A stretch of DNA of 62,586 nucleotides, filler included, from 10 parts of 10 records of this genome joined end to end with filler, not necessarily neighbours in it, one strand, 5' to 3'; counted from the whole stretch's first letter, positions 36,299 through 60,100 are shown. Numbers and translations are program-made. Notes: a model not told the origin generated them from the sequence alone.

Positions 36299-36440
36299 GA
36301 GCTTGAACCAGAGCTTGAGCCAGAACCCGAATTGGAACCGGAAATCGAAGTAGATCCGGAACTTGAACCCGAACTTGAGCCTGAACCTGAGTTAGAGCCG
36401 GAAATCGAAGTAGATCCTGAACTTGAACCTGAACTGGATA
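36299..36440 (+). repeat. Coding tandem repeat, 60-bp unit (EPELEPEPELEPEIEVDPEL), more than two copies
   Basis: CCGGAAATCGAAGTAGATCC occurs twice 60 bp apart with synonymous variation around it. Confidence 0.85.
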
Positions 36441-37951
36441 CTTCAGAAGAAATTGATAATGAGACTATTTACACTCCTGCAAGAGGCGATATCGTCTTTA
36501 CTGAATTGATGCCTTTTCCTTTGGCACTTCCTCCAAATGAGGGACAGTGGCTCGAAATTTTCAACAGAACCTCCAAAACTCTCGACTTTAAGGGCTGTAC
36601 CTTTATTGCTAAAGACAATAATTCTCTAATAAACGAGCATGTAATTCTTGAGCCGAGCGGTTATGTCATTTTCGGTGTTGATAGAGATAACAGCTATCCC
36701 GATGATATTCCACTTGATTGGGTGTGGGGGGATTATAAGCTGGATATATCCAAAGACTCGCTAAAAATAGTTTGTGATAGCAGCATTATAGATGAAGTCG
36801 ATTATGCCGAAAATAACAACCATTTTTATGCACATTGGGGAGCCAGTTTTACTCTTTGTGCCGGAAATCAACATCCCGATCAAAACGACGACTATGCAAA
36901 TTTCAGAACTTCCTCTAACCAGATGGATAATGGTGATCGGGGAACTCCGAATAAAGCTAATGAAGCTTGTGATTTTTTAGATGGTGATATCGAACAGGTA
37001 GAGGGGATCGAAGGATCGGAAGCTTCGGATTTCGATACATCGGTTTGCGCTCCGGCAGGAACTGGTAGAGCTTTGCCTGATTGCGGGCATAACATCAGCC
37101 TGCCAAACAGTTCCGCTCATGAGGTTTGCAATATTGTGCCGTCTGGAGAATGCCATACATTCTGGATGGGAAATCTTGATACAAATTCCTATTACTATAG
37201 AAACGAAGAACTGCCCAGGCATAAAGTTCATCTGACAGAATATTCCATGTCCAGAAACATGGTGACTGTAAAGGATTATAAAAGCTGTATTGCCGCAGGT
37301 GAATGCACTCGCCCATATAATGGCAATTGTCTGGTTGAAGGATCTACACTCGAAGGTACTCCGAATATAGATGATGATACAAAGTTGCTGCATCCGATTA
37401 CATGCATTAATAAGTTTCAGGCGGCTGATTTTTGTCGTTGGGCTGGAGGAACGCTACCTTCCGAAGCTCAGTGGGAATATGCTGCCGGTGGCCCAATGTC
37501 AAATGAGAATGAGATTCGTAATTTTCCGTGGGGAGAAAGCAGGGATGAATGTCACACCAACATTTGGGGCAGTGATCCCTTTGAATCTACTTCTCCTGTA
37601 GGATTTTTTGATGGCGGTCTTAAAACAAGAGCTGAAGGTGGATGGATTTTCGGTCCCGATGTTTACCAGACTTGTGACGATCAGTCACCATTCGGCTTAC
37701 GCGATATGTCAGGCAATGCGACAGAGCTTGTGCTTGATTATGCCAGTTCGTATAGTTCATGGCCTGTAGAAAGTGTTGATCCTGTAATTATTGGTGAAGC
37801 AAAAGGTATGATGATACGAGGATCAAACGCTGTATTTCCTGAAATACACCACGCAAGAACTCACTCAAGAAATGCATGGTTCTGGATTTCAAGTACGATA
37901 GGGGGAGAAACTACAGGATTCAGATGTAAATTTTACCAGACGACTTTTTGA
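36299..37951 (+). CDS. Surface protein with Glu/Pro-rich linker, lamin-tail domain and FGE-sulfatase (SUMF1) domain; 5'-truncated
   Basis: GDIVFTELM...QWLEIFN...GTP (LTD-like); FWMG, LPSEAQWEYAA, SPFGLRDMSGNATE, GFRC (FGE). Confidence 0.82.
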   Translation, partial: ELEPELEPEPELEPEIEVDPELEPELEPEPELEPEIEVDPELEPELDTSEEIDNETIYTPARGDIVFTELMPFPLALPPNEGQWLEIFNRTSKTLDFKGCTFIAKDNNSLINEHVILEPSGYVIFGVDRDNSYPDDIPLDWVWGDYKLDISKDSLKIVCDSSIIDEVDYAENNNHFYAHWGASFTLCAGNQHPDQNDDYANFRTSSNQMDNGDRGTPNKANEACDFLDGDIEQVEGIEGSEASDFDTSVCAPAGTGRALPDCGHNISLPNSSAHEVCNIVPSGECHTFWMGNLDTNSYYYRNEELPRHKVHLTEYSMSRNMVTVKDYKSCIAAGECTRPYNGNCLVEGSTLEGTPNIDDDTKLLHPITCINKFQAADFCRWAGGTLPSEAQWEYAAGGPMSNENEIRNFPWGESRDECHTNIWGSDPFESTSPVGFFDGGLKTRAEGGWIFGPDVYQTCDDQSPFGLRDMSGNATELVLDYASSYSSWPVESVDPVIIGEAKGMMIRGSNAVFPEIHHARTHSRNAWFWISSTIGGETTGFRCKFYQTTF

Positions 37952-37970: not shown

Positions 37971-40900
37971 TCAAAAAGAGTTGTCTATTTCTCTTCTAAA
38001 ATCTTCCAGTTCCTTGGTAATAGTTTTTAGAAGGTTTTGAGCTTTGATAGTGTCTCCATTTTTCGCGAAATACTCAATTTCTGTTGCTATAGAATGAATG
38101 GAAATTGCGCTTGTATTTGCGGCAGCACCCTTGATTGAATGTGCTAGTTGTTCAAGCATATCAGACTTTCCATTTTCGGCGCATCCCTTGGCTTCCGCTA
38201 TTTTTGTTGGAATATCATCAAGAAAAGAATCCACTACTACTTTTGCAAGGTTTTCATCACCCATGACTCTTTCCAGAAGAGTTGTCTTATCAAATAGTTT
38301 TATTGACCTGTTTTGCTTGCTGATTTTTTGCTCTGGTGTCTCTTCTTCAAATTTTAGCCATTTCTGAAGTATATCAAGAATGATTTTAGGAGATATCGGT
38401 TTGGCAATATGGTCATCCATTCCATATTGGAAGCATTTTTCCTTTTCCTCCTGAAGCACCCTTGCCGTCATGGCTACTATCGGGATATCGTGATTAAGGA
38501 CATTTGAGTCTTGCTCTCGTATCATCTGTGTTGCTTCAAATCCATCCATTTCAGGCATTTGGCAATCCATGAAAACAAGGTCGTAATGTATGGTTTCCAG
38601 AACTTTTATAGCTTCGATACCATTAGCAACTGTGTCACAACGAAACCCTAGTTTATCCAGAATTCCAACTGCCACCTTCTGGTTAACCATGTTGTCTTCT
38701 GCAATCAATATTTTGGTGTTTCTTCGCTTATCTTCAGCGATCGAATGCTTGGTGATAAAATCATTGGATATCTGATTTTCAGAATATTTTACTCCGTTAA
38801 CCAGTTTTGCAAGACATTCCTGAAGAACAGATTGTTTTATAGGTTTTGTTAAGTAACCGGCAAATCCCAGATTTTTCATTGTCTTGGCATCGCCGCGTTC
38901 ACCCATGGCTGTCATGGCTATCATTTTTGTACAGTTCGCAAAACTTGATTGGGCTATATCATGTTCGATATTTTCGATGTTGCCTTCTATCAAGCTTTTA
39001 TCAATTATTGCTACATCGAATGGGGTATTGTCATTTGTAGCTTGATCCATAATGTCAATTGCAGATCTATAATCCACAGTTTCCTCATAGTAACAGTTCC
39101 ATGCCTCCAGTAAAATGCTAATCCATCTTCTACTTGTAGAATTTTTATCAGCAATAAGAACTCTGTTTCCTTCAATGTTTTTACTTATTTGCTCATCAAA
39201 ATCAACTACTTCATCCTGTTTTTCAAGAGTTACGGTAAACCAGAAAGTAGAGCCTTCAGCAACAGTGCTTTCAACTCCGATTTGGCCTCCCATCATATCT
39301 ACCAGATGTTTTGAAATTGAAAGACCAAGACCTGTTCCTCCGTATTTTCTGGTAGTAGTTGCATCGGCTTGAGTGAAAGCATCGAAAAGGTTGTCCATAT
39401 TTCCTTTTGCAATACCGATACCGGTATCCTGAATGGTAACTTTAAGTATAATCTGTTTCTTAAGTTCTTCTACAACACTGATGTTAAGTATGACCTCACC
39501 ATCTTCTGTAAATTTAATGGCATTTCCAAGAAGATTGAGGATTACTTGCCTAAAGCGACCGGGATCGCCTTTTAGTAAAATTGGGACATCAGGATCAATT
39601 AAGCTTATGTATTCGATATTTTTTTCATGTGCCTTGATAGCCATAGTATCGTTTGTGTCATCAAGCATTTGACGAAGATTGAAGTTGAGAACTTCGATTC
39701 CCAGTTTGCCTGCTTCGATTTTTGAGAAATCAAGGATGTCATTGATGATTGTCATCAAATTGTTTGCACTTTTTTGCGATATTTCAAGGAATTCTCTTTG
39801 TTCATCCGACAGTTCGCTGTCCATCAGCAGACCTGTCATTCCGATAACTCCATTCATCGGTGTGCGGATTTCATGGCTCATATTCGCAAGGAATTCGCTT
39901 TTTGCTTTATTGGCAATTTCTGCTTGTCTTGCCAGAGTTCTTGCGTGGTCTGTTGTTTTTCTTAGCTGCGAGTTGATTTTTTCAATTTCTTTATTGTTTC
40001 TCAGAAGCTTTTTCTCGGCAAGTTCTCTTTCCAGGACCTCAAGCTTGAGAGTTGCGTTTAGTTTTTCTAGCGATGCGGTTCTATCGGAAACTATTTCTTC
40101 CAGATGATTTCTGTATTTAAAAAGTTCTTTTTCTGATTTTTTCTGATTTGTAACATCTCTGACAACAGTGATGATTTTTGTTACTTCACCATCTTCGATT
40201 ACGGGAGTCTTTTTTACTTCAGTACTTACTTCCATGCCATTTATAACATGTGTTTCTGCTGTTGACATTGACCGCTTATTTTTTATAACATCCCAGTATT
40301 CATCAATAATGGAATCGCTAAGAAAAGGAAAAACATCCAGTAGTCTTGGGTTTTCCGATGCCTGAGATACAAAAAAGTTATCCCACCATTTGTTTTTGGA
40401 TGAGTTGAAAAATTGTATTTCAAAATTACTGTTTACTACGAAAACCAAATCTTCCATTGAGTCAATTGTTGTTTTGTAGAGGTTCTCGGAGCTTTCGATA
40501 AACTGTCTTTCAATCTCGCACAGATTGTTTTTATTCCAATTGGCAACAGAATTGAAAACAGCATGTTGAAGTTCAATATCTTGTACAGGTTTTCTGATAA
40601 GAGTCAGTTGACTTGGCTTAACATCAGTTTCATTGATATCGGCAAGAGAGAAATCTGCTTTCGATGAGCAAATGATAAGTTCTGTTGATGGGGAACTATC
40701 GAGAATTTGCTCTATTGTTTCAATTTCTTTCGCCTCTGGAGTCAGATCCAAATTCAAAACAACAACAGCAAAAGGAGAATTCAGTTCTGCTGATTTTTGT
40801 AACTCTGCATTGGTTTTATCAAGGTTGGAAGTTGACACAATATCCAAGGTTCTATTTAGAACGATTTCATCTTTATTTTCTGCCAGTTTGATCAAATACG

Positions 40901-41006
40901 GATCAATGGAATTTTCAAGCAGAATTTTTTTGTAGTCATCATGATTGTTTTTATCGGGGTCTGCAATCAGAATTTTCAGGTTTGGCCTGATATCAGAGTT
41001 CAACAT
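37971..41006 (-). CDS. Hybrid sensor kinase (pseudo-REC, PAS, HisKA/HATPase, REC, REC, Hpt)
   Basis: [43 protein letters not shown]. Confidence 0.93.
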
Positions 41007-41746: not shown

Positions 41747-42579
41747 AATTACTAAATAATATTTGTCTTTGCTCTTTTTCGGTAAAGTTTTCTACATAAT
41801 AGTAAAAAACAATTTGCACACTATTAATATAATAAATTTTTAACTCAAAGTCAATGATACTTGCAAGAATGTTAGTCTGTAATTTTATTTTCAGTATTGA
41901 AAAAAGAATAAAAATACACCGCTTCCAATGCATAATAATTGCTCGTTCTTTACCATGAAAAATTATGTCAAAGTCATCAATTTTCAGTCCGAAAAACTTA
42001 CACCAGTGTCAAAAAAAAAAACGGACAGGAATCTTGCTCCTTTTATAGGTCATTTTTATGTACATCTTTATCATTTTCTGTGTAATCAATGCTCCTTTAC
42101 AGAGTTGTTTATGTCACTAGTAGGTCATGAATTTTCACTTGAAATCATGCTTGGAAAAATAAGAAAAATGAGAAAAGCATAAATAAAACAATAGGTTAAG
42201 AGGTAAAAGACCTCAAAGAAATGAAGGCCGAAACTCCATTGTAGAGATGGTGACAAGAGAAAACAGCCGGAAAGGCGGTTTTTTTGTGGCAAAGTGCGGA
42301 AAAAGTACACACTTTTAAGAATTTCCGAAGTTTAAAAATCGATTTTAAGTTGCGATTTAGTTTTAAAATTAGCTGGCAAAAAAGCAGGGAATAAAAAGTG
42401 ATTCTCGATAGTTAGAGATAATAAACAGTCTTGCAACATATATAGGAGCATATTAAATTGACAGTTTCTTTACTTTTTATATGCTACTCCATATAATACG
42501 CCACTTGGAAATTATTTTGTGGTTCAAACCTTTAAATAATCGAGTGTTTACAAATTCCATTTCAGAAAAAGGAATTACC

Positions 42580-42756
42580 TTGGGCAAACCGATCAAAAAA
42601 CTTCAAAGGCAGGCAAAGTACATTGTTAAAGAGGCTCGAAGAATCCTGAAAAGGTGGCACAATAAATTGCCTCACGAAGAATTGCAGCCATTGGCGGAAG
42701 TTTTGGGAAAGTATCAATCGGCAATTGACCAGGAAGACGAAATTCTGCTTGAAAAA
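42580..42756 (+). CDS. Hypothetical protein, 5' fragment
   Basis: AAGGA RBS then TTG GGC AAA...; open to contig end; helical and charged. Confidence 0.5.
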
Positions 42757-42856
42757 NNNNNNNNNNNNNNNNNNNNNNNNNNNNNNNNNNNNNNNNNNNN
42801 TTAATTAATTAANNNNNNNNNNNNNNNNNNNNNNNNNNNNNNNNNNNNNNNNNNNN

Positions 42857-43089: not shown

Positions 43090-46000
43090 CTAGGATTTAT
43101 ATTCGCTAAAATATTCATTAAATTGTTCAATTGTTATTTCTGAGTTATGTTTTTCAATAATTTCAATCAATTTTAACATAAATTGCTTATAGTTTTTATC
43201 CATTGATTTTGCTGAAATAAAATGTTTAGTACCAGAATAATTCCATTCACCCTTAATATCTTTAAAATTTGTATTATAATAACTAATAAATTCATTTAAT
43301 GTTGAATGTGCATCCTTTATCTTATTTTGAAATAAAAGGGCACATATCATAAAATATCGCATGGCGATCTGTTCATCTATGGTTGGCTGATGAAGAGAAT
43401 CAGCTTCATTTAGAACTTCACTAGCAATATCATAAGCTTGCAGGAATCTACCAGATGCTAATGTAACTTCAACAAAGTTTACCTTCATATCTTTAATTGG
43501 AAGTAATTCCATAGCTTGATTAAACTTGTCATATGCTGCCTCTAATTCGAATAATTTATCATAGTAAATAGCACCTAACAAATTAAGAGCAACTAGGTTA
43601 GAGCCAACATCTTTCTCTGTCACCTGCTTTAATGCTTGGAGAGCATTCTCATAATCGCCCATATCATAATGCGTTAGTCCTAATACTAAAAATCCATTGT
43701 CGTAATCTGGTCTTATGTTCAAAGCTTTCCTAACGAATAGAATGGCATTTTCATAATCTTTTTTCAGTCGGTAGCAGTCTGCTAATTCAGTGTAGGAAAC
43801 CACATTTTGCTGCATTTCAACAGCCTTATTTAAGTGGGTGATTGCTGTTTCGTACTTACCGGCTATCTTATAACTCATTCCTAAAATTCGGTAAGCTGTA
43901 CCATGTTCTGGATACAGATCTATGGCTTTTTCTAATTGAGTTATAGCTTCTTGTTCTTGACCTTGATGAAAGTGCTTATCTGCCTTTGCAACAAGAGTGT
44001 AAGCTGCCAAACGGCTTGCATCTGTGTATGGGGCAAGGTTTAAGTTGGGATTTATCATTTGTGCTCGTAGAAAATAATCAGAAGCCGTATCCACTTCACC
44101 TGAACGTGCGTGCTCTCTCCCTTTTTTAATCAAACCGCTGGCAACTTGCTTTATTAATTCATACTCGGGCTCAATATTCATATTGGGATCAATTTCTTTT
44201 GCAGCAAAAAATGCTTTCAATGCAGATTCAAAATCCTCCTCAGTTTCAGCTTCTTGTGCAAATTTTCTACCTACTTGATAGAAATTAGAGGCCATCCATT
44301 CTCGTGCTTCTGCATAAAAATCAAGGTTTAAAGTAGAATCAATATCTAATGCGCGACGAAAAGTTTCTGTAGCAGCTTCTAACTTTAAATTTAGTGCCAA
44401 TTCCTTACCTTCAGCAATTAGACCTAACGCTGTCTGTGGACACTCTTCCATATGAAGAAATTTCTGACACTCATCTAGATTCAACGGTCGTGTAACACGT
44501 TTTCGCGCTAGCATTATTAGGTCTTCGATGTTCAACACATAAATGTGCATTGAATTGTCTGCACTAGCAGATGCAAGATACCTTCCATCAGGACTGACGG
44601 CTACCCCTAAAACAGCATTGGTATGCCCGGTGTAGGTGTTAATCTCTTGACCGGTGGCTACATCCCATACTTTAACGGTCTTATCCGAACTAACCGTGGC
44701 CAGGCTCTTACCATCAGGACTGAAATCAATGTCCATAACCGAATCATTGTGGCCAATAAGGGTGCGCAACTTTTTGCCCGAAATGGCATCCCACAATATT
44801 GTCGTTTTCAGCTTACTACCAGTGGCTAACAGCGTTCCATCAGGACTAAAGGACACACAAAGCACAGTGATCATGTCTCCGGAGAGGGTGTTCAGTTCTT
44901 GACCTGTGACTGCGTCCCATATTTTTGCGGTATGATCTCTGCTGGCTGTTGCCAGAAGCATTCCGTCGGAACTAAAAGCGACATCATAGACTTCATGGGT
45001 GTGCCCATAGAGAGTATACAGTTCTTGGCCGGAGACCGTGCTCCAAATTCGCGCTGTGCTATCATTGCTTGCTGTTGCTATTTTCTTTCCATCTGGGCTG
45101 TAGGCAATGGCCTCAATCTCTTCAGAATGACCAGTTAGGGATAACAATTTTTCGCCAGATAAAGCGTCCCAAATCTTAACTGAGCCATCTATGCACGCTG
45201 TTGCCAATCTTAACCCGTCTGGGCTAAAGGCGGCATCTTCAAGTCCCCTGGTGTGACCGGCGAGAGTAAGCACCTCTTTGCCAGTAGCGATGTTCCACAC
45301 CTTTGCAGTGCGATCACTGCTGGAAGAGATCACGCGCTTGCCGTCCGGACTAAATGACACAGACTCCACATCTCCTTCGTGACCGGTTAAAATAAGCACC
45401 TCCTCTCCTGTGATAGTTGTCCATATTTTTGCTGTCCCATCAGCGCCGGCGGTAGCGAGATTCCTCCCATCAGGACTGAAATCAACAGCCCGCATAAATC
45501 CAAATTTCCCAGAAAAACTTGACAAGGTAAATAGCTCATCACCGGACATTACATCCCAAACTTTTGCTGTCCCATCAAAACTGGCACTTGCTATCCATCT
45601 CCCATCCGGACTGAAGGTTAGGTCAGTCACCGTATTTGTATGGCCAGAAATTGTTCTGACAGACCTGTGGGACTCGACATTCCAAATTCTTATATTACTT
45701 GTTCGGTAATAGGCCATAGCAAGGAGATTCCCATCCGGGCTGAAAGCAACGGAGCTTATCTCGTGGGATTGACGGGGAAGTATGAACAGCTCTTGGCCAG
45801 TTGCGACGTCCCATATTCTTGCTGTCTTATCACTGCTTCCTGTGGCAAGTTGCCTCCCATCCGGGCTGAAAGTGACATCATGTATACTACCAGCATGGCC
45901 GTGCAATGTTCGTACATCCTCGCCCGAAGTGACGTTCCACATTTTTGCTGTGCCATCATCGCTCGCAGTTGCCATAAGTGTCCCATCCGGGCTGAAGGTT

Positions 46001-48260
46001 ACAGTATTGACTTCATCGATGTGTGCGGACAGAACAAAAAGCTTCTGACCGGATTCGGCATCCCATACTATCACGGTTCCATCTTCACTGGCGGTAGCAA
46101 GACGCTTACCATCTGGAGTGAAAGTAACTTCATTGATGGTTTCAGAATGACCATACAGAGTGCGGACAACCTTGGCAGATTGAACGTTCCACACTCTTAC
46201 TATCCCACCACTGGCTGTGACTAAGTTTGTTCCATCTGGGCTGAAAACGACGTCTGAAACTAATTTGTTGGGATGATCAAGGCAGATTCTAATTTGTGAT
46301 GCCTGAATAGATCGATGTAGAGCATCTTCTGTCTGTTTTAATACATTTTTATTCGATGTATCAATGACTGAAACGGCATGAAGGGATAATAAAAGGCTAA
46401 GTTCCGGATCTTTATCTAAATTGTAGATCGCTGCTGCAATTAATTCTCGAGAAAAAGATTCTCTTCTTGCATTTTCTGCCTCAATGGTGCGAGAGTATGC
46501 TAAATAAGCTTGATCTTCTGCTCGCTTACGTTCCCTTTCAGCAATTTGCCTAGCAGTGTCAGCGTCTGCTTTTGCTTCTTCTGCTTGCTTTGCACGATCT
46601 GCTGCTATTTCAGCTTGTTGTTTAGCCATATTACGTTGAACAATAGAATTCTTTGAATGCAGAATAGCAATCTGTCTCTGATTCCATGCAAAAAGTGCAG
46701 CTATTATGGCTATAATGCCTAAAAATGCAAGTGCAACTATAAATCGACGCAGTCGCACTGCTGACTTCGCTTGTTCTTCAGCCCTTCGTTCTTGCTCCTT
46801 TGCTAATGCTTTCGCATGTTCTAGTTCACGTCGATGTGCTGCTTCTTTTTCTCGTTTGATTTTCTTTATATTGTTATCACTGGCTTTTATTAATGATTTT
46901 ATATCGTCACTATAACCTATTTTTGCTTTATCGAGTACCTTTACCCAACGCTTTGCTTCGAGTAGTTCTACTTCATCGAGCAAACCACCTGTAGCTTTGC
47001 CTAAACGTACCCATTCAACTACCCAAATATCTAAACATTTACGGGCTTGCTCTACTTCTTGTCGTTCGGATAACCATTTTTCATTAGAATCTTGGATTGG
47101 TTTGATAAACCTATCATGTGTTAACTCATACCATACCCCCCCTTTCTTCGTTCCGGTCGAATAATATGATAGTCAACAAGCAGATCAATCGCTTCGTTCT
47201 TAATATCACCAGTTTTTTCCTTACCTCTATAAACAGTTCCTCTCGTTCCTGCAGATGTAATTAACGCCTGTTCAAACCAGCTACGTAAATCTCCCTCCTT
47301 AACACTTGTTCTATTAATTGTATCGTTAATTGATTTCTCATAAAACATTGTTAGTGCTTGATCCACATCACCAAATACTTTAAGATGATCCTTTGTGATG
47401 GCAGTTACATCAGAAGGTAAATCTCTCCATAGGCTTTCACATACCACTTGAAGTTGAACAGGTTCTATGTATTCCCCTGGAACAGTTTCTATTTTGCCTT
47501 CAGAAGTTTCAACTCTTACATGAAGTAGATCAGTTATTAATGTTTCTGCAGCTTCATCTGAAATAGATAAATTTGTTTTTTTTAGAGGTTCTTTAATTGC
47601 TAACAAACCAGTTTTTTCTATCAAGCATTCTAATCGGAAACGATTTCTCAGCTTATTCGGGAAAAAAGTAGAGAATGGATCGACGAGCTGAGCCAAGAAA
47701 TCTTCTCTAATGGTGAAAATAACTCTTAAGAACAGATCCTTTTCAAGTGCTTGAACAACTTGGAGAATTAATTTCTTTCTGTCTTCCCATCGTTTATGAT
47801 AAGAAGTGAATAGCTCTTCAAACTGATCAAGAATAATAATACGAGGTAAAGATAATCCATCTTCGTCTTCTTTTCGTGGTCTATTCTCTAGAAAATCTTG
47901 AATAGATGTTTTTGTAAGCTCATCAAGTTTACTTTCTTCTCCTGCCCAACTTATTATAGCGTTATATGCATAAGGATTAGACACTTCATCTAGCTTTATA
48001 TCATCAGGGATTAAACCACGAACTCTTGTTATAGGTAAAACATCAAAACCTTCTTCATCTAAAGCTGGGATTAAACCTGCATTAATAAGTGAAGTTTTTC
48101 CGGCACCAGATTGGGAATAAAGAACAAGAACGCGGTAAGAAATGATGAGCGATATAATTTCATCTATCTCCCGCTTCCGACCAAAGAAAATTTCCTTATG
48201 CTGACTTTCAAAAGGACGGGGACCAACATATGGAACATGTTCTTTTAATTTATTAGTCAT
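43090..48260 (-). CDS. nSTAND1-type NTPase, TM, 14x WD40, TPR protein (~1720 aa), split by frameshift at G7 (47136-47142)
   Basis: PYVGPRPF, VLYSQSGAGKTSLINAGLIP, IILDQFEELFT. Adding one G restores WYELTHD and reads in frame into the 43090-46983 ORF, which has a TM helix, 14 xSPDG-type WD40 units and TPR helices. Confidence 0.88.
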
Positions 48261-49116
48261 GAGAATATTTCCTCCATCTATTCTTTAACTCACTAACAAA
48301 TTCTTCGGCAGTGCCCCAGTATACTTTCATATTCATTTCATCAAAATATTTATCAAGGTACTCTCTTAATTCTTCTTGCTCTGGGGGAAGTTGAACAGTA
48401 ACACTAATCCGACGAAGACTTTTTTCTCCAGATGCAACAAGTCCTCTAAAAAGAACTCTAAAATCCCAATCTTCAAGTTTATACCCGATGAACATAAGAG
48501 AAGCTCCGTTTAGAGCTTTTTGGATACGAAACGGAATTAATTCAGGATCGTGTGAAATGTTAACAAGAAAATCTAAATAGTCATCCTCAGTTAAAACCAT
48601 TGATTCTATTACTTCAGTTGTGCCATGTAGATGAAATACGACAGGGTTCGCTGGTGAAGGATCAAAATCGGAATCAAATATAGATCCCTGGGCCTTAATT
48701 ATTTTATTCCAAAGACACAATTCTCGTTTGGGATCTTTTTTCTTCATTTTTAGTGCTTGTATCATAAAGTCATCATAGTTTGTCGTCATATAAATAGGTA
48801 AAGGAAGTTCTGAAAGGACAGTATGAGGTTCATCAGAATTATCAAAGTCAGGTGGCATTACATTTTCAAACAATTCAACAATCTCTTCTTTGGGAAACAT
48901 ATGGTCTTTTTTTACTGCGAGAAATTGAGCTACACGGACAAGATCATTACAATCCTTGATTGGATACTTATATTCTTTCGTCCATTTTTGTGCAATTTCA
49001 GCTCCTAATGGTAGTATGCCAGAACAAACACCAGCTCCAAGAAATGGCGTGCATTTCCCTTTATTAATACGCTTTAAAAGAATTCTCCAATCTTCTTCCA
49101 TTAATGTATATGACAT
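48253..49116 (-). CDS. SIR2-like (SIR2_2) domain protein
   Basis: PFLGAG, YMTTNYDD, VFHLHG, LMFIGYKLEDWDFR; overlaps the STAND start by 8 nt. Confidence 0.88.
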   Translation of the reverse strand: MSYTLMEEDWRILLKRINKGKCTPFLGAGVCSGILPLGAEIAQKWTKEYKYPIKDCNDLVRVAQFLAVKKDHMFPKEEIVELFENVMPPDFDNSDEPHTVLSELPLPIYMTTNYDDFMIQALKMKKKDPKRELCLWNKIIKAQGSIFDSDFDPSPANPVVFHLHGTTEVIESMVLTEDDYLDFLVNISHDPELIPFRIQKALNGASLMFIGYKLEDWDFRVLFRGLVASGEKSLRRISVTVQLPPEQEELREYLDKYFDEMNMKVYWGTAEEFVSELKNRWRKYSHD

Positions 49117-49164
49117 ATCAAACCTCCCAAAATTTTTTTATATACTAATTACATCTTGTCAATA

Positions 49165-49827
49165 CTATTTTCTTTCTAATGCATCAAGGATTAAATGAAG
49201 CAATTCATCAGGACGATTAGTAATGCCAAAAGATTTAGCAGGAACACCTTTTTTAAAATCAATCACGCCTACGTAAAAAATAACAGGTGTTTTGTTATTT
49301 AACATCCTGTATTCATTTAAAAAACTTAGACCTACATCCTGCTGATTACTCCTTTTCATATCTGATATCACGATGTCATACTGACTATTTTTTAAAATAC
49401 TAAGCGCCTCTTTAGTATTTTTAGCCATGCCAATTTCGACATTTAGCTGCCGGAACATTTTTCGTTCGTTAAGATTGTTCTCAGGATGATCATCAAGCCA
49501 GAGAATCTGCACATTCCGTAGAATCTTTTTATGTTGAATTACTCGATTGATAGTTCTTTCTTTATCCTCAATTGGAACAAACACATTCCATTTTGTTGAT
49601 TTATCTGCCACTTCGATTTCTGAGTCATGCTCCTTTGCTTTGTCTATAGCTGCATCAAAAGATTCTTTTATAAAAGAAAATTCCATTCCCATAGCTTTAA
49701 ATACATGTAAATTTGGTAATAATTAATTTCTTATAGTTTTATAGAAGATTATCAATACAATAATAGCAAAGACAACCCAGAAAATTGACGGTAGAATTTT
49801 TATTAATTCTACAAATATATCTTCCAT
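49165..49827 (-). pseudogene. Membrane-anchored receiver-domain protein with in-frame TAA at 49723-49725
   Basis: ATG 49827 MEDIFVELIKILPSIFWVVFAIIVLIIFYKTIRN*LLPNL... is in frame with the track ORF (ILWLDDHPENN, IVISDM, PVIFY). Confidence 0.65.
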
Positions 49828-50123
49828 CTTATCTTTTCCAATTTTAAGTGTGCGTACATGTAATTATCTAAAAACAGAATTTTTTTTAAATTTTAATCAA
49901 CTAAGAAATTGACCAATCGAATTTATTTTAATCCTAAATATATCTAACATTTAGGATTTTATCCATAGTTAAGCGCCAAAAAAACTGCCGATGTATAGCA
50001 AGAAAAACGAGTTACAAATATTANNNNNNNNNNNNNNNNNNNNNNNNNNNNNNNNNNNNNNNNNNNNTTAATTAATTAANNNNNNNNNNNNNNNNNNNNN
50101 NNNNNNNNNNNNNNNNNNNNNNN

Positions 50124-51133
50124 TGGTGCATAAGCCATTTTTGCCAGAATATTGATCATATAAATCACGGTAATATCATTCATCCCTGGTAGATATAGCA
50201 ACATAAAGAATAAGCCAGAAATTATGGAACTTGCGAGAAAAACATTCCGTTTTCCATATCTCTTAGCCAATGGCTTTGAAAAAGGGATGGCCACAATTAG
50301 CGCAACTGTTCCAATAACATTGAAAAGCTGAACATTCTCTTCCCTTCCGATATAATATTTAAAATAGTAAGCAATTGAAAGGTTTTGCATGGCAAACATG
50401 ACAAAGGAAATAATACCAACAAAAAAAGGATCACCCAAGGTTGGTTCTTGAACAGGTTACGAAAATCCTCTTTTAATGATTCCTTCTGTTCTATTGGGGG
50501 CTGAACACGCTCTCTTGTTGTTTTAAAAGTGATTATAAACAGTATAAAACTAATCAGGCCAAAAAGAATTAGGGTGTATTGATAACCTTTTGCCGTATCC
50601 CCTTTCCCAAAATATAGGGCTAGCGAAAGAGCAGTTCCTGAAACAATGAGCTGCCCGATAAATGCAAAAATAAAACGATACGAATTTAATCCTGCCCTTT
50701 CATAAGAATCTGAGGTCATAACTGCTCCCAGCGAAGAATAAGGTAAATTAATGGCCGTAAACACAGTCATTAAAAGAAAATATGTAACACCTGCATAGAT
50801 TACCTTGCCACTCTGCCCAAAATTAGGAGTTGTAAAAGTTAGCACAGCAAGAATACTGTATGGCAATGCCATCCAAAGAATGTATGGCCTAAATTTGCCC
50901 CAACGGGTTTTGGTACGGTCTGCAATAATGCCCATAACTGGATCACTGATCATATCCCAAGCACGGGCAATCAACATAATTGTACCAGCTGCTGCTGCCG
51001 AAATACCAAATGTGTCGGTATAAAAAATCAGAATCCAGAAACCAACCATATCCCAAACAAAATGAGATGCAGTATCACCCAAACTATATCCGACCTTCTC
51101 TTTTAATGATAGTTTTGTATTCAGCTTGTTCAT
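50124..51133 (-). CDS. GPH family (MFS) glycoside/cation symporter, frameshift at A7 (50421-50427), 3'-truncated
   Basis: EKVGYSLGD, DPVMGIIADRTKTRWGKFRPY, INLPYSSL. Confidence 0.9.
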
Positions 51134-57154: not shown

Positions 57155-60100
57155 TCACAGCCTTATGCCAATAACCAAAATATCGTCAATCTGCTGAAAA
57201 TCACCTTTCCACTCTTCAAATCGACGGCTAAGTAGTTCCTTCTGTTTGACCATCGGTTGGCGGCTTACCTCGACAAGTAAATGTTTAAACCTTTTCTTAT
57301 TGAATTTTTTAAGCTTGTCTTCACTTAACTGATCAGGAAATCCATCGGTGAAAAGATACATGATATCTCCATCCCGGAACGGTATATCGTGAGTTGTAAA
57401 AGGAGTTTCCTTCAGGTGAAACCCGATGGGCATTCTGTCTGCCTTGAGCTCTATCAGTTCACCATCCCTCACGATACACAAAGAATTGAAAGCACCGGAA
57501 TACTGTAATTGTCGTGTCGCCGGATCGATAATGCAAAGAGCGATATCCATCCCTTCATACTGATCTGAAAATTGACCACTTTGTTTAAACGATCTTTTGG
57601 TCTTCAAGCGCAACTCATTTAAAATTGCACCGGAGTCGAGTTGAGAATGCAAAGAGAGTGACGGCACAATTTCATTTAAAAATGCGATACCAAGCATGCT
57701 GACCAGGGCTCCCGGCACCCCATGGCCTGTACAGTCCGCCACCGCAACGACTGTTTTGCTTTCAACCTTTCTCATCCAGTAAAAATCTCCACTCACAACC
57801 GAATGGGGTTTATACAATATAAAATACTCTCGGAACAGACTCTCAATCAGTTCAGAATCAGGCAGAACCGCATTCTGGACCTTGCTTGCATAAGTGACAC
57901 TATCGGTAATCTTTTTATGACTCTCTTCAAGCTTTCCGTGACTCTCTTCCAGTTCAAGGGTTCGTTTTTTCACTTTTTCTTCCAAATTTTCATATAATTC
58001 GGAATTCTCTATTGAGATGGATATCTGTGTTGAAAGCATATTGAGAACTTCCAGTCTAGCCGGCGTGAATGCCCCCTCTACAAGATTGTTTTCAAGGTAG
58101 ATGATTGAAGAGACGTTTCCTTTTCTCAAGACAGGTGAACATACGGCGGATTTGGGCTGATACGCTTCGATGTAACTGTCGGTTGAATAATCCATATCAT
58201 TTGAAATGTTATCGAATACCAGTTGTTGTTTACTTCTTACAACATAGTTGATAACCGATAAAGGGGCTTTATTCGATGTCTCAAGGGGTATGGCCTGTAA
58301 TACCGGCGGCACCCCATCTGTCGAACCTTCGGCTTGAACCAACATCCCTGCATCTCTATTCTCTATTAAAACGCCTTTCTGGGCCCCTGCATTTTCAATG
58401 AGGATATGCATCATTTTTTCCAACAACGGCTTGAGATGCACCTCGCCGGACAATGTTTGAGACGCCTTCAGGATACTTTTGATATCAAGAATAGTACCAC
58501 TTGTTTCACTTGAAGAGGAGATGTCATATGTTGTCGAAGAGCGGCCCGAAGGAGCATAGAGATACATGGTCAGATATTTGGGGAAATTCTCTTCAAGGTG
58601 CCTTACTTTTCCTGCTGCACCCCATTTTAAATAACAGTTCCTTGCCTCCATGAAATAAAGAGCGGCAAGCTTTTCTTTTTTTCCCGACATAAAATTTTGC
58701 AGCCAGTTCATTTGCCAATGCGGCATCGTTGATATATTCGTTTTCATAGGCTGTTTCTATGGCTTTGTCATAGTAGTCCGGACACTCATCTTCCCTGCCT
58801 GTGACTCTGCAAAGTTCCGCCTGCATGAGGTAATATCTGTGGAGGAAATTGACCGGACCAAACTCCGCCCATTCTTTGACGCTTTTTATCCTTTTTTTGC
58901 TCTGGCAAGAAATTCTTCCTTCTCTTCTGTATTATCCGTTTTTGTGTACAGTGCAATATAAGCGAGGGGAAGATAAAAATAGATATCATTTCTTGTATAA
59001 ATGATTTGGATATTGAGCTTGTTCCATCTCTTTTCAGCCGCCTCAATATGCGCTGAAATGTCGTCATAATTTTCAAATAGATACGCCACAAAAACTTTTT
59101 TCAGATGCCCCTGTATGGCACAAAAATGACCTGCCTGACCCGGCACGCCCTGGAAAATCCCTTCGACATCGCAATCGAGTCTTCCCGGATTCGAACTTTT
59201 TCCAAGAAGACTTTCCATTGCCAGAATGTCACACTCCATATCCGCCACCACAAGGGCCTGCTTCAACTGATTTGCAGTATCCCTCATATCCAGTGCTTTT
59301 TCATAGAGTTTGGGCAGCTCCATATCGGTACGGCTCAGCAGTGCAATGTAGTTATCCATCAAGGAACTTGCGAACTCGATATCTCCGACATTCATGGTTT
59401 GCGGGTAAATATCCATCAGCATGGAGGCAAGCTTCTTGTAATGGATTTTCTGGCCAAGCAGATAGTACATTGAAATGAGATCGGCCCTGTAGGGGATGGT
59501 CAGGTTTTCGGATTGTTCCCTTGATAACGCCAAAGATATTTCACCAAGCGTGTATGCGCCTTCAACATCACCCCACAGAAGCTTCATTATGCCCACATGG
59601 CTCAACACATGGGGGGTTTCCGAAGTGAAACCATGCTCGATCGTTATTTCGAGCATTTTCAATACCGCAAAAAGATATGCCTCTTCTCCACCCAGAATGA
59701 ATGCAAGTATTGAATTGTCGAATATTTCCAGTACCAGTTCGTAGTGTGGATGGTTCATTCTGGGCAGTTTTCTAAAAGAGTCGATATCCATCTCTTTGAG
59801 ACGCACCTCATTGGAACGGTATAGGTGTTCGATCTCTTCCCTTTCCGGAGAATCAGGGATATCCACGCCAAGACCTCGAAACACTTTGAGCAAATACTGC
59901 ACCGCCTGAATGGGCTGCTGTCTGATCATAACAAGCCCCAAGGAGCGATGTCTGTAAGCGGTAAAGATGTGAGACACTTCGTGGGCATGCTTGATAACCG
60001 TTTCCACAAAACGATCCATATTGTCAATATCCCCATTGAGGTACGACGTCTGAATCCCTTCGTTGTAAGCCGCAAGCGTCAAATCATAGTGCACATCCCA

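What the first reader, a model, noticed from the sequence alone, without database searches (positions are those of the whole stretch)
43090..49827. REC / SIR2 / membrane-spanning nSTAND1-WD40-TPR module: candidate NLR-like immune system with the effector in trans
Seen: three co-oriented genes. The SIR2-like gene overlaps the STAND start by 8 nt and keeps the TTNYD Asn and LHG His. The STAND has no N-terminal effector, and a TM helix separates the NTPase from 14 WD40 repeats (two propellers) plus TPRs. Established: SIR2 domains are NAD-depleting effectors in Thoeris, DSR and Avs, and STAND-repeat proteins are pattern receptors. Inference: an extracytoplasmic repeat sensor drives NTPase oligomerisation and activates a separate SIR2 NADase. 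This split, trans-membrane layout with a REC partner does not match a named system I can recall.
Basis: partly seen in the sequence, partly recalled or inferred. Interest (0 to 1): 0.7.

Follow-up and report, generated by a model that had tools for sequence, protein, structure and literature searches.

The report
Membrane-spanning STAND sensor with SIR2 partner
Three neighbouring genes encode an NLR-like ATPase switch that crosses the cell membrane with its large repeat sensor probably outside, a separate NAD-destroying SIR2 enzyme inside, and a membrane-anchored receiver protein; this is a widespread but untested layout that may let bacteria trigger a suicide or dormancy response from outside the cytoplasm.

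Summary
On the minus strand lie a receiver (REC) gene, a 287-aa SIR2 gene and an nSTAND1 NTPase gene whose start overlaps the SIR2 stop by 8 nt. After the NTPase come one TM helix, a charged stalk, 14 WD40 repeats and TPRs.

- **Pairing:** nSTAND1 follows SIR2 in 74 of 80 related genome loci from many phyla. Fused SIR2-nSTAND1 proteins exist.
- **Membrane layout:** 132 of the 150 best family representatives have the TM helix. Some relatives carry cell-wall domains behind it.
- **Catalysis:** standalone SIR2 partners keep the catalytic Asn and His (120 of 120). Partners fused to CHAT or other domains mostly lose the His, so the SIR2 fold also looks like the docking piece.
- **REC:** it is a real third component in a subclade, with SIR2 directly downstream in 21 of the 32 closest REC loci. 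It is an atypical, membrane-anchored receiver.
- **Lesions:** the window's REC has an in-frame TAA. The STAND frameshift (a G7 run) is absent from three read-derived contigs, so it is probably an assembly error.

Best reading (0.55): an outside-sensing, NAD-depleting conflict module. I found no named system or paper that matches it. The scan met the same layout before on other DNA. I rate it a new variant of a known kind. Function is untested.

The parts
49165..49827 (-). REC gene, full extent: N-terminal TM helix, linker, about 60-aa helical region and an atypical receiver domain. It is interrupted by an in-frame stop.
   Evidence: the reading frame from ATG 49827 is homologous to the N-termini of 36 of 38 REC homologues. 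Pfam Response_reg 4e-9.
49744..49797 (-). Coding region of the REC N-terminal TM helix (about ILPSIFWVVFAIIVLIIF).
   Evidence: 36 of 38 homologues have a hydrophobic segment here (KD >= 1.8 over 17 aa). The other 2 are cut by contig ends.
49723..49725 (-). In-frame TAA inside the REC gene (codon 35), where homologues have Asp or Glu (…R-D-E-L-L-P-N-L…).
   Evidence: Not checked in reads.
49258..49506 (-). Receiver domain. The acidic pocket is kept (D67, D68, D111). The beta4 Thr position is Val or Ile, and the beta5 Lys position is an invariant Arg-Pro.
48253..49116 (-). SIR2 gene (287 aa), standalone, with GAG, N113 and H164 intact. It has a GGGAGG ribosome-binding site upstream.
48253..48260 (-). 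8-nt overlap between the end of SIR2 and the STAND start codon.
47136..48260 (-). nSTAND1 NTPase module (residues 1-375). Walker A is G54 K55 S57; Walker B is D145 Q146 E148 E149.
47136..47142 (-). G7 homopolymer where the window's reading frame breaks. Read-derived contigs have one more base.
46744..47135 (-). End of the NTPase module (WYELTHDRF…) and a charged cytoplasmic linker.
   Evidence: No Pfam family.
46684..46743 (-). Single TM helix of the STAND protein (about residues 507-526 of the intact protein). It is preceded by K..RLRR.
46261..46683 (-). Charged, Ala/Glu/Arg-rich stalk (coiled-coil-like) between the TM helix and the propellers.
   Evidence: No Pfam family.
44518..46260 (-). 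14 WD40 repeats, enough for two seven-bladed propellers. GC3 is 0.44, against 0.22-0.28 in the rest of the module.
43090..44517 (-). C-terminal helical tail with TPR repeats (Pfam hits at about 43597-44001), ending at the stop codon.

Best explanation
This is a three-gene, membrane-embedded NLR-like conflict (immunity or cell-death) module.

**Components**
- The STAND protein is a single-pass membrane protein. Its nSTAND1 NTPase sits in the cytoplasm. Its stalk, two WD40 propellers and TPRs sit outside the inner membrane.
- The SIR2 protein is cytoplasmic and is the effector.
- The REC protein is anchored by its own N-terminal TM helix and has an atypical receiver domain in the cytoplasm.

**Proposed mechanism**
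1. Binding of an external or periplasmic ligand to the repeats relieves autoinhibition and lets the NTPase modules oligomerise.
2. The SIR2 protein docks on the NTPase through its own fold.
3. Forced clustering or filament formation activates it, as in ThsA, KomC and Avs5.
4. It hydrolyses NAD+ and stops growth.
5. The REC protein gates or tunes the switch, probably without a histidine kinase.

**Shown here:** gene order, domains, intact motifs, conservation of the pairing, and the commonness of the TM layout.

**Inferred:** topology, docking, NADase activity, the trigger, the biological role, and what REC does.
For: **Pairing**
- nSTAND1 lies downstream of SIR2 in 74 of 80 genome loci from many phyla, and in 71 of them within 500 nt.
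- Of the 6 others, 3 are cut by contig ends and 3 are real exceptions.
- Only these two gene families recur among the neighbours.
- SIR2 and STAND-N identity matrices co-vary: Spearman 0.635 over 63 loci, with 0 of 500 permutations as high.
- 20 of the 120 listed longer homologues fuse SIR2_2 to nSTAND1. Five have SIR2 at the N-terminus, and three of those also have the TM helix.

**Effector**
- N113 and H164 are kept in 120 of 120 standalone homologues, and GAG in 118 of 120.
- The fold model (pLDDT 86) matches ThsA, KomC, EfAvs5 (SIR2-STAND) and DSR2 best.

**Docking role of the SIR2 fold**
- His is lost in 65 of the 120 longer, fused homologues.
- In the genome loci, the single (STAND-adjacent) SIR2-like ORFs that lack the His are 471-721 aa long, against a median of 319 aa for the His-keeping ones. 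In two tandem pairs (L033, L058) the STAND-proximal copy has also lost it.

**Topology**
- 132 of the 150 best representatives have a TM helix after the NTPase, and 127 have exactly one. In 118 of those 127, K/R is richer on the N side.
- Among the SIR2-linked loci the figures are 55 of 75 with a helix and 48 of 55 with that charge bias.
- Relatives carry Amidase_2, Peptidase_M23, Peptidase_M15_4, SH3_3 or PPC domains in the C-terminal part.

**NTPase**
- Walker A and Walker B residues are invariant in 54 sequences.

**REC**
- SIR2 lies directly downstream in 21 of the 32 closest REC loci. nSTAND1 follows in 11 of them, counting one partial hit cut by a contig end (L085).
- All 7 full-length STANDs in REC-linked loci have a single TM helix.
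Against: - There is no functional data of any kind.
- PADLOC finds no known system. Only the SIR2 domain hits ThsA or LmuA models.
- The window's context is housekeeping chromosome: a his operon, hrcA-grpE, two-component systems and an MCP.
- Only 12 of 146 sampled neighbour ORFs of related loci hit PADLOC models at 1e-10, and most of those hits are to generic domains. Guilt by association with antiphage islands is therefore weak.
- Topology rests on hydropathy, charge bias and domain types, not on a topology predictor or an experiment.
- G-beta-type WD40 repeats are more familiar in cytoplasmic STAND proteins.
- 18 of the 150 best representatives, and the Nonomuraea-type relatives, have no TM helix.
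- REC is absent from 79 of the 80 SIR2-anchored genome loci.
- The window's REC carries a stop codon, and no ribosome-binding site precedes the downstream ATG. The module may therefore be impaired in this genome.
Confidence: 0.55

Rival explanations
1. It is a transmembrane signalling module that is not immune. The STAND protein would report an envelope or extracellular cue, such as cell-wall state, cell-cell contact or a developmental signal. The SIR2 protein would act as a regulated protein deacylase or ADP-ribosyltransferase on specific targets. REC would link the module to phosphorelay or metabolic state.
For: - The context is chromosomal and is not a defence island.
- Cell-wall-type domains sit in the C-terminal region of relatives.
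- A receiver protein is part of the module.
- A hybrid histidine kinase lies 2 kb downstream in the window.
Against: - The nearest SIR2 relatives by sequence and fold are all NAD-destroying defence effectors, not deacetylases.
- In the family the SIR2 domain is interchangeable with, or joined to, death-type effectors: CHAT, caspase, trypsin, TIR and patatin.
- The receiver lacks the conserved Thr and Lys of phosphorylation-driven switches.
- No histidine kinase is conserved next to the module.
Confidence: 0.2
2. It is a classical cytoplasmic Avs-like sensor. The hydrophobic helix would be only a peripheral or monotopic membrane anchor, or not membrane-inserted at all. The WD40/TPR part would then sense a phage protein inside the cell.
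For: - Characterised STAND sensors, including WD40 ones, are cytoplasmic (passages of PMC12803255).
- No signal peptide precedes the exported part.
- TM-less relatives exist.
Against: - A single helix of 19-20 strongly hydrophobic residues occurs at a conserved place in 132 of 150 representatives.
- The positive-inside bias holds in 118 of 127 single-helix proteins.
- Peptidoglycan amidase, M23, M15, SH3_3 and PPC domains sit in the C-terminal part of relatives, and 6 of those 8 proteins have the helix by my threshold.
Confidence: 0.12
3. The locus is a decaying remnant in this genome, with a nonsense codon in REC and a frameshift in STAND, and has no present function.
For: - In-frame TAA at 49725..49723.
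- G7 frameshift.
- The module's GC3 (0.22-0.28) differs from that of the flanking genes (0.33-0.37), as expected for acquired DNA.
Against: - The frameshift is contradicted by the read-derived contig of the probable source sample and by two relatives.
- SIR2 and all STAND motifs are intact.
- The 1297-aa and 379-aa frames have no other lesion.
Confidence: 0.1

Closest known systems
Avs5 / AVAST type 5 (SIR2-STAND), e.g. EfAvs5 (PDB 9jap). Paper PMC11897194, 'Filamentation activates bacterial Avs5 antiviral protein': I saw only the search listing and the start of the abstract.
   Same: A SIR2 NADase effector coupled to a STAND NTPase and a C-terminal sensor. EfAvs5's SIR2 is among the best fold matches (rank 11, E 2.4e-11).
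   Different: - Avs5 is one cytoplasmic polypeptide. Here the SIR2 is a separate gene.
- The NTPase belongs to the nSTAND1 clade.
- PADLOC gave no hit to either STAND part at E<=0.01.
- A TM helix separates the NTPase from the sensor.
- A membrane REC gene is attached.
nSTAND1 counter-invader systems (Kaur, Iyer, Burroughs, Aravind 2021, PMC8195603; I saw passages and a search of the supplements). Pfam PF20703.
   Same: The same NTPase family (5.8e-35). The same logic of variable effectors and repeat sensors. That paper also notes receiver domains acting independently of histidine kinases in related systems.
   Different: - The passages I saw describe N-terminal effectors or EAD adaptors.
- They do not mention a SIR2 gene in trans, a TM helix after nSTAND1 or a TM-anchored REC. 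SIR2 occurs once in the main text, in another system, and 0 times in the 8 supplementary files.
- No EAD is found in the window's proteins. One relative, L026, has SIR2-EAD7.
Thoeris ThsA and Kongming KomC SIR2 NADases (PDB 7uxt, 6lhx, 8bto, 8zsf)
   Same: They are the closest SIR2 domains by sequence (6e-11 to 7e-7) and by fold (E 3e-13 to 1e-11). The catalytic Asn and His align. Both are activated in helical assemblies, according to the PDB entry titles.
   Different: There is no SLOG domain, no ThsB/TIR gene and no KomA or KomB. The partner here is a STAND NTPase.
Bacterial NACHT proteins with TM-containing C-terminal regions (Kibby et al., bioRxiv 10.1101/2022.07.19.500537; passages seen)
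   Same: STAND proteins whose C-terminal regions can hold TM segments. SIR2 and Rec appear among the associated domains.
   Different: A different STAND clade (NACHT). [quoted passage not shown] I could not see Table S1.
Earlier notes of this scan on other DNA (e1-2168244, e1-3746755, e1-4096839, e1-4383749, e1-3023408)
   Same: A membrane-spanning nSTAND1 with an outward sensor and an upstream partner gene built on a SIR2-like domain.
   Different: In those cases the partner is TIR- or CHAT-fused, and its SIR2-like domain has lost catalytic residues. Here the partner is SIR2 alone with intact residues, and a TM-REC gene is added.

Membership tests
nSTAND1 (PF20703) STAND NTPases | Match to the family profile above the curated cut-off | tested here: met
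   122.1 bits against a cut-off of 27.1, residues 10-310.
nSTAND1 (PF20703) STAND NTPases | Intact P-loop (Walker A GxxxxGK[ST]) and Walker B acidic residues | tested here: met
   G54, K55, S57, D145, Q146, E148 and E149 are invariant in 54 sequences, including the window's.
nSTAND1 conflict systems as described by Kaur et al. 2021 | An N-terminal effector or an effector-associated domain (EAD) linking effector and NTPase | tested here: not met
   the NTPase starts at residue 10, and no EAD is found in SIR2, REC or STAND; only relative L026 has SIR2-EAD7.
Defence-type SIR2 NADases (SIR2_2, PF13289; ThsA/KomC/DSR2/Avs5-like) | SIR2_2 profile match, with the NAD-binding GAG and the catalytic Asn and His | tested here: met
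   87.5 bits; G27-A28-G29, N113 and H164 present. N113 and H164 are kept in all 120 standalone homologues and the GAG triplet in 118 of 120.
Defence-type SIR2 NADases | NAD+ hydrolysis on activation | not testable with these tools
   Needs an enzyme assay.
Avs5 (AVAST type 5) | SIR2, STAND and sensor in a single polypeptide of the Avs5 clade | tested here: not met
   separate genes; no PADLOC hit for the STAND parts at E<=0.01. I recall that PADLOC holds Avs models; no call checked this.
Thoeris | ThsA (SIR2 plus SLOG) together with a ThsB TIR gene | tested here: not met
   the 287-aa protein covers only the SIR2 part of the ThsA models (profile positions 13-204 of 478). None of the 12 neighbourhood ORFs scanned between 37971 and 55771, which include the module, has a TIR domain.
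Canonical response-regulator receiver (CheY-like) | Acidic pocket (DD and the phospho-acceptor Asp) plus a conserved beta4 Thr/Ser and beta5 Lys | tested here: inconclusive
   D67, D68 and D111 are invariant. The Thr position is Val or Ile (32 of 33 sequences; the last has a gap), and the Lys position is Arg-Pro (33 of 33). I placed these positions by spacing relative to CheY from memory, not from a structure.
Canonical two-component system | A cognate histidine kinase conserved next to the receiver | tested here: not met
   no third gene family recurs next to SIR2-STAND. In one search, the scanned ORFs downstream of REC gave SIR2_2 (in 7 loci) and otherwise unrelated families, with no kinase among them. 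The window's hybrid kinase (37971..41006) lies 2 kb away.

The most novel reading that the evidence does not exclude
A large clade of bacterial NLR-like proteins works as outside-in receptors, functionally closer to Toll-like or receptor-kinase signalling than to cytosolic NLRs.

- An extracytoplasmic propeller/TPR or peptidoglycan-binding sensor would transmit across the membrane to a cytoplasmic STAND oligomer.
- That oligomer would recruit its effector through a SIR2 fold that serves as a universal docking adaptor. The fold would be catalytic when it stands alone and degenerate when a CHAT, TIR or other effector is fused to it.
- In one subclade, a membrane-anchored, kinase-independent receiver protein would act as co-receptor or safety catch through TM-TM contact.
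Probability: 0.35. Interest if true: 0.85.

Novelty: new variant of a known kind. Interest (0 to 1): 0.62.

Why it matters
All bacterial STAND/NLR-like immune sensors characterised so far detect their triggers in the cytoplasm. This family is large: 9783 representative clusters at E<=1e-30. If it really places its sensor outside the membrane and fires a cytoplasmic NADase, bacteria would have a way to respond to attack at the envelope, before or without entry of foreign material. It would also be a prokaryotic counterpart of transmembrane innate-immune receptors.

The clean split between catalytic standalone SIR2 partners and His-less SIR2-like domains fused to other effectors points to a testable rule: the SIR2 fold is the docking element. 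The TM-anchored atypical receiver adds a regulator that has not been studied. This locus, or an intact homologue such as L089, is small enough (three genes, about 6.7 kb) to test directly.

Tried and rejected
- **Whole genome.** None is held for this window, so I could not count paralogues in the same genome.
- **Complex prediction.** I submitted STAND-N, SIR2 and REC with REC as the partner. After many refusals because the queue was full, the job ran. The verdict was 'no answer' (score 0.00). The alignments were not used and the controls were not folded. This says nothing for or against binding.
- **Structure prediction.** It was closed and worked later for SIR2. I did not fold REC or the STAND.
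- **PADLOC on neighbours.** I sampled 146 of 317 neighbour ORFs at random, from His-keeping loci only. It gave 12 hits, mostly to generic domains (sigma-54 activator, Ser/Thr kinase, PRiA4-like, radical SAM). There is no usable defence-island signal.
- **Tandem repeats.** No DNA-level tandem repeats lie in the WD40 block. The repeats are diverged at the nucleotide level.
- **Promoter and terminator scan.** Counts were at chance level: 24 found against 21.9 expected, and 3 against 4.7.
- **STAND N-part against PDB sequences.** No hit.
- **Runs X2 and X3 (marine sediment metagenomes).** They hold only 90-95% relatives over part of the stretch. I use them only for the indel, not for habitat.
- **Literature.** Seven searches and the passages I read turned up no paper describing a SIR2 gene in trans with a TM-bearing nSTAND1 or a TM-REC. 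The supplementary tables of the bioRxiv preprints (Kibby 2022 Table S1; the 2026 STAND survey PMC12803255) were not seen and may list such architectures.
- **REC as a mis-called TIR-like domain.** Considered and rejected: Pfam, NCBIfam and the Atlas all place it in Response_reg.

Full report
**1. What is there**

All three genes lie on the minus strand.
- REC: ORF 49692..49165 (175 aa).
- SIR2: 49116..48253 (287 aa).
- STAND: two frames, 48260..47121 (379 aa) and 46983..43090 (1297 aa; open from 47130).

The SIR2 ORF, including its stop, overlaps the STAND start codon by 8 nt.

Pfam gives:
- Response_reg: 4e-9, above the curated cut-off.
- SIR2_2: 1.2e-24.
- nSTAND1: 5.8e-35, starting at residue 10.
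- WD40: 14 stretches.

The tail holds TPRs. A 20-residue hydrophobic helix (46743..46684) follows a K..RLRR motif. A charged stalk of about 140 residues comes after the helix, before the first WD40 blade.

PADLOC matches only the SIR2 part, to ThsA, LmuA and PDC-S25 models. It finds nothing for STAND or REC. NCBIfam names neither SIR2 nor the NTPase.

**2. Two lesions**

*The STAND frameshift.* The STAND frames are separated by a frameshift in a G7 run (47142..47136). One more G would read …RRKGGVWYELTHDRF… and give a protein of about 1723 aa.

I laid public contigs on 46600-47700.
- The contig of the probable source sample (X1, word depth 34.5, no other difference) has one extra base in exactly this run.
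- The two partial relatives, X2 and X3 (90-95% alike), also have a 1-base insertion, at 47135 and 47133.

All three contigs that cover the site therefore disagree with the window. The frameshift is most likely a homopolymer error or a minor variant. X1 may be the window's own sample, so it gives an independent assembly but not an independent organism.

*The REC stop codon.* The REC frame continues upstream to ATG 49827 and encodes MEDIFVELIKILPSIFWVVFAIIVLIIFYKTIRN. An in-frame TAA follows at 49725..49723.
- 36 of 38 REC homologues encode a conserved TM helix at this place (…ELIKLIPSILWF…FYRPIRDELLPNL…). The other 2 are cut by contig ends.
- The TAA sits where they have Asp or Glu.
- No Shine-Dalgarno-like sequence precedes the internal ATG 49692, whereas SIR2 has GGGAGG.

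I could not check this stop in reads.

**3. Is the SIR2-STAND pairing real?**

I took 80 genome loci around SIR2 relatives of 30-60% identity. They come from Desulfobacterota, Chloroflexota, Acidobacteriota, Actinomycetota, Planctomycetota, Bacteroidota, Pseudomonadota, Verrucomicrobiota, Gemmatimonadota, Myxococcota and others, going by the record titles.
- 74 have an nSTAND1 NTPase downstream on the same strand, 71 of them within 500 nt.
- Of the 6 others, L057, L061 and L013 end at a contig edge.
- L026 has SIR2 fused to EAD7, followed by a kinase. L053 is followed by a 1134-aa protein with no Pfam family. L060 is a CHAT-SIR2 fusion.
- All-against-all clustering of 877 neighbouring ORFs found only these two families to be widely shared, in 67-68 loci.
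- The identity matrices of the two proteins correlate: Spearman 0.635 over 63 loci, with 0 of 500 label permutations as high. Shared organismal descent contributes to this figure.
- Among the 120 listed longer homologues, 20 join SIR2_2 and nSTAND1 in one protein. Five have SIR2 first (three of these with the TM helix, for example the 1542-aa P0175 with WD40). Fifteen have SIR2 at the C-terminus of a TM-less nSTAND1.

**4. The SIR2 protein**

- Its 120 best standalone homologues (59-80% identical, about 290 aa) keep N113 and H164 in 120 of 120, and GAG in 118 of 120.
- The nearest solved sequences are a ThsA (7uxt, 6e-11), KomC (8zsf) and ThsA 6lhx.
- An AlphaFold model (pLDDT 86.2) matches ThsA, KomC, EfAvs5 (SIR2-STAND) and DSR2 best, with E from 3e-13 to 1e-9. 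All of these are NAD-consuming defence effectors, and several were solved as helical assemblies.

Among the 120 longer homologues, whose SIR2 is fused to CHAT, trypsin, caspase, TIR, kinase or nSTAND1, only 55 keep the His and 93 keep the Asn.

Of the 83 SIR2 copies in the genome loci, 25 have Phe or Tyr instead of His.
- In 20 of the 22 loci that I listed as having only a His-less copy, the ORF clustered with SIR2. Each of those ORFs is 471-721 aa long, against a median of 319 aa for the His-keeping ones.
- A C25-like peptidase gene occurs in 11 of these His-less loci and in none of the others.
- In the tandem SIR2-SIR2-STAND loci L033 and L058, the STAND-proximal copy is the degenerate one.

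My inference is that the SIR2 fold is what connects partner and NTPase, and that catalysis is dispensable once another effector is attached. The window's SIR2 belongs to the catalytic, standalone class.

**5. The STAND protein and its topology**

- A profile of 54 NTPase modules (A2; Walker A and Walker B invariant) finds 9783 representatives at E<=1e-30 among 1.84 billion proteins.
- In nearly all of the 150 best, the NTPase starts within the first 25 residues.
- 132 of the 150 have a hydrophobic helix after the NTPase, and 127 have exactly one. K/R is richer on the N side in 118 of those 127.
- In the SIR2-linked genome loci the figures are 55 of 75 with a helix and 48 of 55 with that bias. 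Several of the 75 are truncated by contig ends.

Pfam on 73 C-terminal parts shows:
- beta-propellers in about 28;
- TPRs in about 13;
- cell-wall or extracytoplasmic-type domains in 8: Amidase_2 (L019, L025), Peptidase_M23 (L029), Peptidase_M15_4 (L041, L042), SH3_3 (L039) and PPC (L008, L018). Six of these 8 have the helix by my threshold.

TM-less members carry patatin (L010) or only TPRs (the Nonomuraea and Acrocarpospora group). L030 has a TIR domain before the helix.

Taken together, this supports an N-in, C-out layout with a swappable outer domain. No experiment and no dedicated topology predictor supports it yet. From memory, the layout resembles PknB/PknD-type receptor kinases, which have a cytoplasmic enzyme, one TM helix and an external PASTA or propeller domain.

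**6. The REC protein**

- Only 1 of the 80 SIR2-anchored genome loci (L001, Desulfobacula) has a REC homologue.
- I then searched metagenome contigs with a REC alignment. In 21 of the 32 closest REC loci (47-68% identity, L081-L112), a SIR2 gene lies directly downstream. It is followed by nSTAND1 in 11 of them; in one of these (L085) only the first residues of the NTPase are seen before the contig ends. Pfam confirmed this.
- Four of the 11 loci without a downstream SIR2 have less than 400 nt of sequence downstream. L094 and L102 have SIR2 and STAND upstream instead. L081, L091, L092, L100 and L107 lack them.
- Among the 48 more distant REC hits, only L134 has a SIR2.
- Some REC-linked SIR2 genes belong to a different SIR2_2 subfamily (24-30% identical). 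All 13 that I could align keep both Asn and His.
- All 7 full-length STANDs in REC-linked loci have one TM helix.

The receiver keeps D67, D68 and D111 in 32-33 of 33 sequences. It has Val or Ile at the beta4 Thr position and an invariant Arg-Pro at the beta5 Lys position. I assigned these positions by their spacing relative to CheY, from memory.

The passages I read from Kaur et al. 2021 note receiver domains in related conflict systems 'occurring independently of histidine kinases'.

REC is thus a membrane-anchored, atypical receiver and a true third component of one subclade. What it does is open. L089 is an intact comparator: TM-REC of 215 aa, SIR2 of 298 aa, and a STAND of 1550 aa with one TM helix and 13 WD40 repeats.

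**7. Context**

- The window is ordinary chromosome: a his operon, hrcA-grpE, mnmA, two-component systems and an MCP.
- GC3 of the module is 0.22-0.28, against 0.33-0.37 in the flanking genes. The WD40 block alone has GC3 0.44. This suggests acquired DNA with a compositionally distinct sensor cassette.
- A random sample of 146 of the 317 neighbour ORFs from His-keeping loci gave 12 PADLOC hits at 1e-10, mostly to generic domains. There is no clear defence-island signal.

**8. Comparison and novelty**

The module works most like Avs5 (SIR2-STAND). It belongs to the nSTAND1 family of Kaur et al. 2021. It fails the Avs5 and Thoeris membership tests, and it lacks the EAD adaptors described for nSTAND1 systems.

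I found no paper describing a trans SIR2 with a TM-bearing nSTAND1 or a TM-REC (searches). Unseen preprint supplements may list such architectures.

The scan itself met the membrane-spanning nSTAND1 with TIR- or CHAT-(dead)SIR2 partners before, on other DNA.

New in this locus and this analysis:
- the catalytic standalone SIR2 class;
- the rule that links His loss to fusion with another effector;
- the TM-anchored atypical receiver as a third gene;
- the evidence that the frameshift is not real.

**Verdict:** a real, conserved, uncharacterised module; a new variant of a known kind; interest 0.62. The mechanism is inferred, not shown.

Noticed in passing
window 44518-46260 versus 43090-49827: The WD40 block has GC3 0.44, while REC, SIR2, the NTPase, the stalk and the TPR tail have 0.22-0.28 and the flanking genes 0.33-0.37. 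The sensor cassette looks compositionally foreign inside its own gene. No DNA-level tandem repeats lie in it.
   Followed up: partly
window 58889-62410 and 57158-58747 (minus strand): A 1174-aa protein with a Ser/Thr kinase domain followed by AAA_16 (a STAND-like ATPase) lies next to a GAF-SpoIIE phosphatase. This is a second large signalling NTPase in the window.
   Followed up: no
window 36332-37948 (+) and 37971-41006 (-): A 539-aa protein with an FGE-sulfatase domain and a hybrid histidine kinase (PAS-HisKA-HATPase-2xREC-Hpt) lie downstream of the module. No link to the module is conserved in relatives.
   Followed up: partly
window, 18 runs of 44 N in 9 pairs (e.g. 42757-42856, 50024-50123): Paired masked stretches recur every 5.5-7 kb. 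Two of them flank the module and cut the ORFs at 42481-42804 and 50076-50438, where an MFS transporter gene appears split.
   Followed up: no
L008:9296-9931, L013:6092-6769: A NUDIX hydrolase gene lies directly upstream of SIR2 in two Acidimicrobiia loci. It could process ADP-ribose products or act as a brake.
   Followed up: no
L033, L058 (also L008, L021): These loci have tandem SIR2-SIR2-STAND arrangements. In L033 and L058 the STAND-proximal copy has lost the catalytic His while the distal copy keeps it.
   Followed up: partly
L046, L049, L050, L052, L055, L064, L068, L074, L077, L078, L079: A Peptidase_C25-like (clan CD) gene is found only in loci whose SIR2-like domain lacks the His: 11 such loci, and none among the His-keeping loci.
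   Followed up: partly
L066:8914-9933, L067:6835-7866: An FGE-sulfatase-domain gene lies directly upstream of SIR2 in two Caldilineaceae loci, where the SIR2 Asn is replaced by Ser.
   Followed up: no
L005, L071; L013 with L018; L057 with L080: Several genomes hold two or more SIR2-nSTAND1 modules, sometimes within 10 kb. NLR-like gene families often expand in this way.
   Followed up: no
L026:9989-11125: This SIR2 carries a C-terminal EAD7 adaptor domain and has no adjacent STAND. It links the SIR2 family to the EAD-mediated recruitment described in the literature.
   Followed up: no
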